Shown: piece after piece, positions 37,701 to 40,700 of the stretch
Numbering within the stretch: position 1 is the first letter of the stretch
Layout of the letters: each line of letters opens with the position of its first letter
NCBI GenBank assembly: GCA_030141605.1
Contig: JAQGDQ010000336.1
Span: forward strand, 62,001 to 126,000
DNA length: 64,000 nt
Source of the DNA: Tubiluchus corallicola
Lineage: Eukaryota; Animalia; Priapulida
Direction: 5' to 3'
Translations under genes and position numbers: made by a program
The notes under the pieces: generated by a model
The model's database searches: none
What the model saw: only the letters and a program-made list of their open reading frames with translations
What the model was told of the DNA's origin: nothing

Positions 37701-40700
37701 ATTTTAGAGTTATGAGCTGTTATGCATTTTGGCTCTGAACTTGGGCTCTTAACAAAATTCTAGCATTTTAAAACTCCACATACACATCTAAATTTACACG
37801 TACACAATATTTAAATACTGAAAAAAATGAATTTAAAACCTAGGAGTTGAATAGCAATAAAAAAGTGGCAGATGCCCACATGTTCTTGACCTTTTGTCAG
37901 AGGTCACTGTTCACCACATCACATTCAAGGCCCCTAACTCAAATATCTATACTGGGAGTTTCGTGAGTCTAACCCGCTGACTTTGCATGTTAACATGAAT
38001 TAAAAAGTGAAAAAATGAAAAAAATGAATGCCTAATATGATTAAAAACAAGTGTCAGGGGTTTTCCTAGATCCATGATGCTAGCGCTCATAAATAAAAAT
38101 AAGGTCAGGCCACTTACCAGGTACTTGAATCAAGGTGTGGCCATACTGAAAATGAACCATCTTCTTTGCGAAATGCCATTTCTTGATTATAACCTACAGC
38201 AAACAAATAGCAGCTTATAGTGACAACATATGCAATTTATTTAGCTGCATAAACATAGTATATTGTTGTAAAGTTTTAGACTCCGATACGTAAAAAGAAA
38301 ATCATCTTTAGATATAGAAATTTGCGAACTAAATATTATTAAATGTGTCCAGGAAAAAGTCATACTGTAAACTAAACTAATCACATTTTTCTCTAGAAAT
38401 TAACTTAGTTAGAGGCCTGAACTCTACTGAAGCTAACATGAATAAAGTGGATTTTAGTTTCTCGACATATGCTGATTATGAATGAATTCCAAAGAAACTA
38501 AATTGTAGTTAGAACAATAATGTGTAACAAGGAAAAAACATAAAGTTTTGAAAATCAATAAGCATAGCTATTTTTCAGAAAAATCTAATCTACAGTCAAG
38601 TAAATCACCATCGATTATGAATTTCTTCCCATTCTCTGCCATCTCTTCAGTCAGCTGTCCGGTTCGTTTAAGATAATACATGGAATAGACAGCTGGAGCC
38701 ATGTGGATCATGGTTTGTTCTCCGCAACCAGTTGGTATGCTCAGCAATGGATCCATTCCACCAAGCACGGTTCTGCAAGAAATAACTTGTATCAAAGAGC
38801 AGAAAGTGATCTAAGGTGTCTACAAATCTCATTGTAGTATTCATAATAATATTTATAGACCTATCACGCAAATGATAACAAATTAGCTTTAAAATCTGCA
38901 CATATGAATAATTTTTTAAACTATAAACCGTTACAAAAACATCTTATTATTAACGAAATTGTAATATTCATGTACTAAAGACACCACAGAAGTACAACAT
39001 TTAAATAATTAAACACTAGTATCACGTGTTATGAAGCTTGAAATCAATTTCTTGTGAATTACTTTAAATTACCTGACAGTTGCTCCGAGTAAGTCACCCA
39101 TTACCGTAACACTGCATCTATCTGTATCAGGAATTGCATCTTCTGGTACAGTTACATCTACTGTGTTGGTTTGCTCACTCCTGCGACGCCTGCCTACTAA
39201 CGGATAAATAATAATACAGCTTAAAAACTTCAAACAGATAGTATGTACAGAAAATAAACAATTCCTATTATTGAATTTAAGAAAATATAAAGTTCCAGAT
39301 AAATATTTTCTCAAAATCAAATATTAAGGAATAGAAAAATTCCAGCTTGAATGTGTATAATTAAGGTGACCTAATTATTTCATTGCATAATGCATCTGGA
39401 AAGGCAAATTTTATTTCATCTCAACTTTTACTTATGTAATTAAACTGCTGAACACTTACTTCGGCTTCTAGAAGATATCACATCTCGTTTAAACCGTTTC
39501 TTTAATTGTCCAGAAGGATCAAGCACGGCAGAATAGGTAGATACTTTTTCTACACCTTCTGGCTATAAAATACAGCATAGTCACCAAATAATTTTTGATG
39601 CAGTAACGTCACAAAAATTTTATTTCGCACAATATTTAACACACTATTAATAAGAATGCTGCAATGCAATTAAACATAAGAATGATACAACACAACCTTT
39701 TGTCTCAACTTACGAAGTTAGAAGCTAGAAATCTTAGAACAGATATTAATTATGAGCCAAGCCTAATGTGAGGCTATTTGTTTTATTCAAATTAAATGTA
39801 TGACAGAAGAGTAAATACTCAATACTCAGTATGGAATTTTCAGTACAAAGCAGTAAATAGATCATGCAGCATTTGGTATACTGTTCTAAATTTCAAACAA
39901 TATAAATAAATCCATAATTACTAATGTTCAGAACAAGTAGCATACTTATATCATAGTATGAATAATCAAGATCAAATGACTTAATTCATTTTGTACATAC
40001 TTCGACACGAAGCGGTTTCTCAATAATGTCTACGGCTCCATCATCTGCTGTAGCTAATACACGTATTGGAAATTTACCAACTTTTAGTGGAACAACTAGA
40101 AAACTAACTGTTCCGCTATCATGAGCGTAGACGGTGAACCTTTTTGCGGAGCTGTTATATCCTGGTAATGCTCCGGAACAGAGCCCATCAACTCCTTGCA
40201 TCATAGCCTGAATCTGGAAATTAACACAACACAATAATTCTTTAACTTAAAAAATCAAATGAATGATTCCTGACCGGACAGCCTATTCATAAATTACAAC
40301 TTAGAACAGATGTTATACCAAAGGCAATATAATGGTACAATACAATACAGTTGCAAACGAAAAGTAAATATTTGCTACAAAATCATGAATCATTTAAACT
40401 TACATCATGATCATGATCATCATAGTTGAACACTGTTGCCCTGATCTCAAATTGCTCGTGTCGCACAGCAGCATACGGCACATTCAAATCCAAGAAAAGC
40501 TTTTTGAAGGCAGTTATTGGTTTAGGCTTGGACACACATATTGGAATGCTATGTGAAACAGCCACAGCCTGAACAATCCACGTGGTTATGCTGCCTGGAA
40601 GCTTAGACTTAATGTCATACCGGCCACTGGCTCTGCAACGGTCAAATGTTAGCAGTTTAAAAATCAGAATGACAAGGACAAAAAAACTTTCTGAAACTTT

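What the first reader, a model, noticed from the sequence alone, without database searches (positions are those of the whole stretch)
39073..39562. C3 has an extra double furin site where vertebrate factor I releases C3dg: a possible pre-nicked, four-chain C3
Seen: exons 22-23 splice to ...SAVLDPSGQLKKRFKR|DVISSRSRIGRRRR|SEQTNTVDVTVPEDAIPDT..., giving two R-X-K/R-R consensus sites (codons 39502-39485 and 39191-39180) about 45 aa before GCGEQ. Known: human C3 reads TLDPERLGR|EGVQ here, the third factor I cut that separates C3dg from C3c; the usual convertase sites of C3/C4 are only beta/alpha and alpha/gamma. Inference: secretory-pathway convertases could excise a 14-aa basic spacer and nick the CUB loop constitutively. 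The thioester domain would then be flanked by processing sites on both sides (with the alpha/gamma linker), probably still tethered by the MG8 disulfide (QYCTY/DMCTV). This could give factor-I-independent shedding of the opsonised fragment, or a pre-processed, cobra-venom-factor-like convertase scaffold. I do not know whether related invertebrate C3s already show this insertion.
Basis: partly seen in the sequence, partly recalled or inferred. Interest (0 to 1): 0.8.

Follow-up and report, generated by a model that had tools for sequence, protein, structure and literature searches.

The report
Third cut site in invertebrate C3
A complement C3 gene, likely from a priapulid worm, has two furin-type motifs in the loop where vertebrate factor I cuts; the first is shared with horseshoe crab, spider, tick and centipede C3, so these animals likely make a four-chain C3, although cutting there is untested.

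Summary
The two exons join through a GT-AG intron and encode RFKR and RRRR, 14 residues apart (13 with the alternative tandem acceptor), in the CUB-domain loop where human C3 is cut after R954. The gene's closest relative is Priapulus caudatus C3.

It is not a private insertion. The loop has the usual invertebrate length. A strict R-X-K/R-R motif lies in it in 54 of 236 homologues: 34/59 chelicerates (horseshoe crab C3 included), 2/3 myriapods, Priapulus and Lingula. It is absent from 0/15 cnidarians, 0/14 vertebrates and 0/20 CD109/TEP. Only the second motif is unique (0/236).

Most likely a secretory convertase nicks the loop, giving four chains that conserved cysteines would keep linked.

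Cleavage is not shown, and no transcript covered the junction. The papers I could read list only two processing sites. The primary horseshoe crab protein papers were unavailable and may already settle the question.

The parts
28610..51608 (-). Complement C3 gene, 39 modelled coding exons; first (signal peptide) exon not located
   Evidence: Open 1769-codon model; Pfam ANATO, A2M, TED_complement and NTR/C345C on 5 of 6 exons scanned; two introns (42101/42862 and 31302/31656) bridged by contigs of run X2
39460..39562 (-). Exon with the first CUBg strand, the DP motif and motif 1
39485..39496 (-). Motif 1, RFKR (preceded by KK, followed by DV): the conserved convertase-type site
   Evidence: Codons; same position in Priapulus, horseshoe crabs, spiders, ticks, centipedes, Lingula
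39197..39459 (-). Phase-1 intron, 263 nt, ending in a tandem acceptor (exon start 39196 or 39193)
39180..39191 (-). Motif 2, RRRR (followed by SE): found only in this gene
   Evidence: 0 of 236 homologues have two separate strict motifs in the loop
39073..39196 (-). Exon with motif 2 and the remaining CUBg strands, including a Cys at 39116-39114
38715..38729 (-). Thioester motif GCGEQ
37126..37128 (-). Catalytic His, aligned with the His of human C3
42878..42889 (-). Beta/alpha processing motif RVKR
33961..34192 (-). Exon with the long Ser/Arg-rich alpha/gamma linker (KRRR and two minimal RXXR, no strict motif)
   Evidence: the matching linkers are low-confidence coil in both homologue models
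34497..34499 (-). MG8 Cys before the alpha/gamma linker; predicted partner at 31737-31735
   Evidence: kept in 44/44 and 42/44 chelicerate C3; pairing inferred from human C3 (recalled)
34963..34965 (-). CUBf Cys, candidate partner of the CUBg Cys at 39116-39114
   Evidence: absent from 11/11 vertebrates and 12/12 cnidarians; bond not shown

Best explanation
This is an intact, likely priapulid, complement C3 whose CUB loop carries a convertase-type motif shared across chelicerates, myriapods, Priapulus and Lingula, plus a second motif of its own; a furin-like enzyme likely nicks the loop during secretion, which would give a four-chain C3 that stays disulfide-linked. Shown: the motifs, their position, their distribution and the cysteines. 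Inferred: cleavage, giving beta (about 70 kDa), alpha1 (ANA to first CUB strand, 37 kDa), alpha2 (rest of CUBg, thioester domain, CUBf, 47 kDa) and gamma (35 kDa), with loss of a 13-14 residue basic spacer here. Inferred: beta-alpha1, alpha1-gamma and alpha2-gamma disulfides hold it together, so the nick would loosen CUB after activation and leave one further cut, not three, to free the thioester fragment. It would not release the fragment by itself.
For: Strict motif in the loop in 54 of 236 homologues, with the last Arg 9-10 residues after the DP proline in 40 of 55 carriers, the window included. In 44 full-length chelicerate C3s it is kept as often (27) as the accepted alpha/gamma site (23); beta/alpha 39. 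P2' is Ile, Val or Leu in 35 of 50 and P1' is mostly Ser, His, Thr or Ala, matching convertase preferences (recalled). In AlphaFold models the motif lies in coil between strands (horseshoe crab C3; Priapulus, pLDDT falling from 80 to 56 across it). The horseshoe crab model has the native C3 shape (TM 0.65 to native C3, 0.33 to C3b). Segments after the motif are shortened in Lingula and P0040, so they look dispensable. Linking cysteines are present and conserved. Furin makes the beta/alpha cut in human pro-C3 (bioRxiv 10.1101/2024.04.15.589532, passages).
Against: No protein evidence of cleavage was seen. The horseshoe crab loop is predicted with high confidence (pLDDT about 92), unlike the disordered alpha/gamma linker (35-47), and exposure could not be measured. 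25 of 59 chelicerate rows lack the strict motif, 6 lack even a relaxed one. One of 43 control windows also holds a conserved R-X-K-R (23 of 44, nearly all ticks, at a CUBf strand end), so conservation alone does not prove a cut. Recalled, not seen: a review (Kawabata 2010) calls horseshoe crab plasma C3 three-chain. The sample is biased towards chelicerates and holds near-copies.
Confidence: 0.55

Rival explanations
1. The loop stays intact in circulating C3 and is cut only after activation, when CUB moves, by an extracellular Arg-specific protease: a primitive counterpart of the factor I cut.
For: Same loop as the human C3dg-releasing cut; ordered in the native-shaped model; relaxed basic motifs are commoner than strict ones (53 against 34 of 59 chelicerates); recalled three-chain description of horseshoe crab C3.
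Against: The full multibasic consensus with aliphatic P2' is more than a trypsin-like enzyme needs; the strict motif is kept as often as the alpha/gamma site.
Confidence: 0.27
2. The loop is never cut; the basic patch is structural or binds polyanions such as microbial surfaces.
For: A conserved R-X-K-R at a strand end exists elsewhere in tick C3; high model confidence at the loop; many bilaterian C3s lack the motif.
Against: The order R-X-K/R-R and the P2' bias are specific; this gene gained a second consensus motif in place of the acidic hairpin residues of its relatives.
Confidence: 0.14
3. The second motif is a splicing artefact and real transcripts skip it.
For: No transcript covered the junction; the acceptor is ambiguous by three bases.
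Against: The only in-frame acceptors that keep the strand conserved with Priapulus are 39196 and 39193, both upstream of RRRR; 39142 would delete that strand; 39189 and 39180 score -1.4 and 0.0 and are out of phase.
Confidence: 0.04

Closest known systems
Priapulus caudatus XP_014670910.1 (annotated CPAMD8-like; partial model, C3-like by tree and alignment)
   Same: 73-74% identity, sister in both trees at support 100; RTKR at the position of motif 1
   Different: Single motif; the segment after it is acidic and predicted to form a hairpin
Horseshoe crab C3: TtC3 (BAH02276.1) and CrC3 (AAQ08323.1)
   Same: Same loop length; RQKR at residue 955 between the beta/alpha (666) and alpha/gamma (1427) motifs; predicted four chains 72, 32, 53 and 35 kDa
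   Different: Single motif in the loop; strict alpha/gamma motif; about 33% overall identity is typical for chelicerate C3 against the window protein
Human C3 and its factor I cut at R954 (C3dg release)
   Same: Domain order, thioester, catalytic His, linking cysteines and the position of the cut
   Different: Human loop about 20 residues shorter, single Arg, cut only in activated C3 by factor I with cofactors
Three-chain C4-type and invertebrate C3-like proteins (PMC8960428)
   Same: Beta/alpha and alpha/gamma processing regions
   Different: The passages read describe two sites and two- or three-chain forms only
Cobra venom factor
   Same: C3 homologue with extra maturation cuts in the alpha chain (recalled)
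   Different: Its gamma chain runs through this loop and it loses the thioester domain (recalled); here the domain and its motif are kept

Membership tests
Complement C3/C4/C5 subfamily | Anaphylatoxin domain with six Cys | tested here: met
   PF01821 above cut-off on exon 42101-41922; six Cys
Complement C3/C4/C5 subfamily | C-terminal C345C domain | tested here: met
   PF01759 above cut-off on exon 30851-30710; the last exon alone gave no hit
Complement C3/C4/C5 subfamily | Thioester GCGEQ and catalytic His | tested here: met
Complement C3/C4/C5 subfamily | Beta/alpha R-X-K/R-R site | tested here: met
   RVKR
Three-chain (C4-type) C3 | Alpha/gamma processing site | tested here: inconclusive
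   Long basic linker with KRRR and minimal RXXR but no strict motif
Furin/proprotein convertase substrate site | R-X-K/R-R consensus | tested here: met
   RFKR and RRRR
Furin/proprotein convertase substrate site | Exposed, flexible loop in the folded precursor | tested here: inconclusive
   Coil in two homologue models, pLDDT about 92 and 80 to 56; no accessibility values; the window protein itself was not folded
Furin/proprotein convertase substrate site | Cleavage in the secretory pathway | not testable with these tools
   Needs protein data
Cobra-venom-factor-like convertase scaffold | CUB intact across this loop, thioester domain removed | tested here: not met
   CVF gamma chain spans the loop; the window's motifs lie inside CUBg and none lies at the CUBg/thioester boundary

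The most novel reading that the evidence does not exclude
Four-chain C3 is the norm in chelicerates, myriapods, priapulids and some spiralians: a built-in convertase cut pre-opens the CUB loop in animals without factor I, and the vertebrate factor I cut that frees C3dg falls on this same ancient processing loop. This worm goes further and excises the loop as a peptide.
Probability: 0.3. Interest if true: 0.75.

Novelty: new variant of a known kind. Interest (0 to 1): 0.5.

Why it matters
How invertebrates, in which factor I has not been described (recalled), switch off or turn over deposited C3b is open. A conserved third processing site at the factor I position gives a concrete and cheap test, because horseshoe crab C3 is abundant (above 0.3 mg/ml, PMC3351276) and the predicted chain sizes differ clearly (32 and 53 kDa against 86 kDa). 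If it is cut, the two-or-three-chain classification of invertebrate C3 is incomplete. As a feature of this one genome it matters less: only the doubling of the site is its own.

Tried and rejected
No whole genome is held. No RNA holder was listed. Run X1 matches introns, so it looks like DNA; run X2 (RNA by guess, about 93% identical, spliced) bridged two other introns but gave no cover at 39073-39562 at 85% or 80% likeness: no evidence either way. A word-based search with one exon found nothing. A micro-exon inside the intron was rejected (donor score 0.9; the gene's donors score 4.1-12.4). A scan of 51650-62000 for a signal-peptide exon returned no candidate. A link between the CUB cysteine pair and the motif is weak: 25 of 39 carriers and 23 of 63 non-carriers have the pair, uncorrected for kinship. 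One origin of the motif could not be decided: deep nodes are unresolved, and the tree without loop columns needs 16 changes for the strict motif and 11 for the relaxed one (the careful tree did not finish). Ten literature searches found no description of a third site or a four-chain invertebrate C3. Zhu et al. 2005 (EMBO J) is not held. Earlier scan findings gave nothing relevant.

Full report
Observation. On the minus strand, exon 39562-39460 and exon 39196-39073 flank a 263-nt GT-AG intron. They encode KKRFKR at 39502-39485 and RRRR at 39191-39180. The acceptor is a tandem; both options are in frame and keep both motifs, giving a spacer of 14 or 13 residues. A matrix built from the gene's other introns prefers the shorter one (5.7 against 0.6) and scores the donor 8.4, within the gene's range. 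Two strict motifs in 27 residues arose in 0.005% of 20000 random draws. No transcript covered the junction.

The gene. A 39-exon model from 51608 to 28610 is open for 1769 codons and lacks only the signal-peptide exon. Exons match Pfam ANATO, A2M, TED_complement and NTR/C345C (5 of 6 scanned). It has RVKR at beta/alpha, GCGEQ, the catalytic His and a long basic alpha/gamma linker. Spliced contigs of a related run confirm two other introns. The nearest protein is Priapulus caudatus XP_014670910.1, 73-74% identical and sister at support 100 in two trees, one without the loop columns. The window is therefore likely from another priapulid.

Position. The human loop aligns here, and the solved C3c alpha-prime fragment 1 has 206 residues, which ends at R954 if the chain starts at S749 (recalled).

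Distribution. Of 326 proteins fetched by then, 249 were at least 600 residues and not extra members of a listed cluster; 1 had no hit, 8 did not cover the region and 4 had the loop missing, leaving 236. A strict R-X-K/R-R motif lies in the loop in 54: chelicerates 34/59 (relaxed motif 53/59), myriapods 2/3, Priapulus 1/1, Lingula 1/1, molluscs 1/12, nemerteans 1/4 (at another offset), echinoderms 3/17 (all Apostichopus), unnamed 11/85 (one later identified with a cuttlefish cluster). It is absent from cnidarians 0/15, amphioxus 0/3, hemichordates 0/2, vertebrates 0/14 and CD109/TEP 0/20. The loop is 35 residues in the window, 35 at the chelicerate median and 14 in vertebrates. No homologue has two separate strict motifs. 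The searches were seeded with a window exon, horseshoe crab C3 and Lingula C3, so chelicerates and tick near-copies are over-represented.

Is it a processing site? For: among 44 full-length chelicerate C3s it is kept in 27, the alpha/gamma site in 23 and beta/alpha in 39; P2' is Ile, Val or Leu in 35 of 50. Against: that loop is confidently ordered in the horseshoe crab model (pLDDT about 92), and 1 of 43 control windows shows an equally conserved R-X-K-R in ticks (23 of 44; the next best were 4 and 3). The window's own protein was not folded.

Mechanism. Cutting would give chains of about 70, 37, 47 and 35 kDa (beta lacks its first exon). The cysteines matching human beta-alpha, MG7-anchor (Cys873-Cys1513) and MG8 bonds are present and widely conserved (other pairings recalled), so all four chains would stay linked. 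The thioester fragment would need one more cut in CUBf, where the human factor I arginines are not kept. Constitutive shedding is thus unlikely. Cobra venom factor's gamma chain runs 49 residues past the aligned point, so that analogy fails. I put constitutive nicking at 0.55, cutting only after activation at 0.27, no cutting at 0.14 and a splice artefact at 0.04.

What is known. PMC8960428 (passages; its supplementary alignment figure was not seen and may show the motif) describes two cleavage sites and two- or three-chain forms. Passages of PMC3351276, PMC7878551, PMC5352706, PMC9835746, PMC4714745 and PMC7962413 did not give the chain structure of invertebrate C3. Ten searches found no third site. 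Zhu 2005 is not held; Ariki 2008 and Kawabata 2010 were seen only as reference entries. From memory, unverified and in conflict: Kawabata 2010 calls horseshoe crab C3 three-chain, while Zhu 2005 showed microbe-bound plasma bands near 75, 50, 36 and 34 kDa, close to my computed 72, 53, 35 and 32 kDa. The question may already be answered there.

Verdict. Real sequence feature in an ordinary C3. The first motif is a widespread, apparently little-noted ecdysozoan trait; the second is this lineage's own. New variant of a known kind, interest 0.5.

Noticed in passing
window 41320-41629 (-): Unusually long exon between the anaphylatoxin domain and the alpha-prime N-terminus (103 residues, with a probable activation Arg in RGR); it could give a long C3a tail or a bait-like region. 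Lingula and P0040 also have extensions here.
   Followed up: no
window 39116-39114 and 34965-34963 (-): A Cys pair that could bridge the two halves of the CUB domain in many bilaterian invertebrate C3s; absent from the vertebrates (0/11) and cnidarians (0/12) examined.
   Followed up: partly
tick C3s, Lingula P0144 and P0040, aligned to window 35037-34879: A conserved R-X-K-R at a CUBf strand end, about 7 residues before the human second factor I site. If cut, it would complete release of a C3dg-like piece; absent from the window gene.
   Followed up: partly
window 33961-34192 (-): The alpha/gamma linker is Ser/Arg-rich and resembles the spacer between the two motifs; P0040 has a similar run in its linker.
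   Followed up: no
window 30851-30710 (-): A strict RKKR motif inside the C345C domain; significance unknown.
   Followed up: no
P0016 (XP_014670910.1): The Priapulus protein is annotated as CPAMD8-like but groups with C3; its model is partial and holds a duplicated, low-confidence middle segment.
   Followed up: partly
window 58270-58590: Long trinucleotide repeat tracts upstream of the gene.
   Followed up: no
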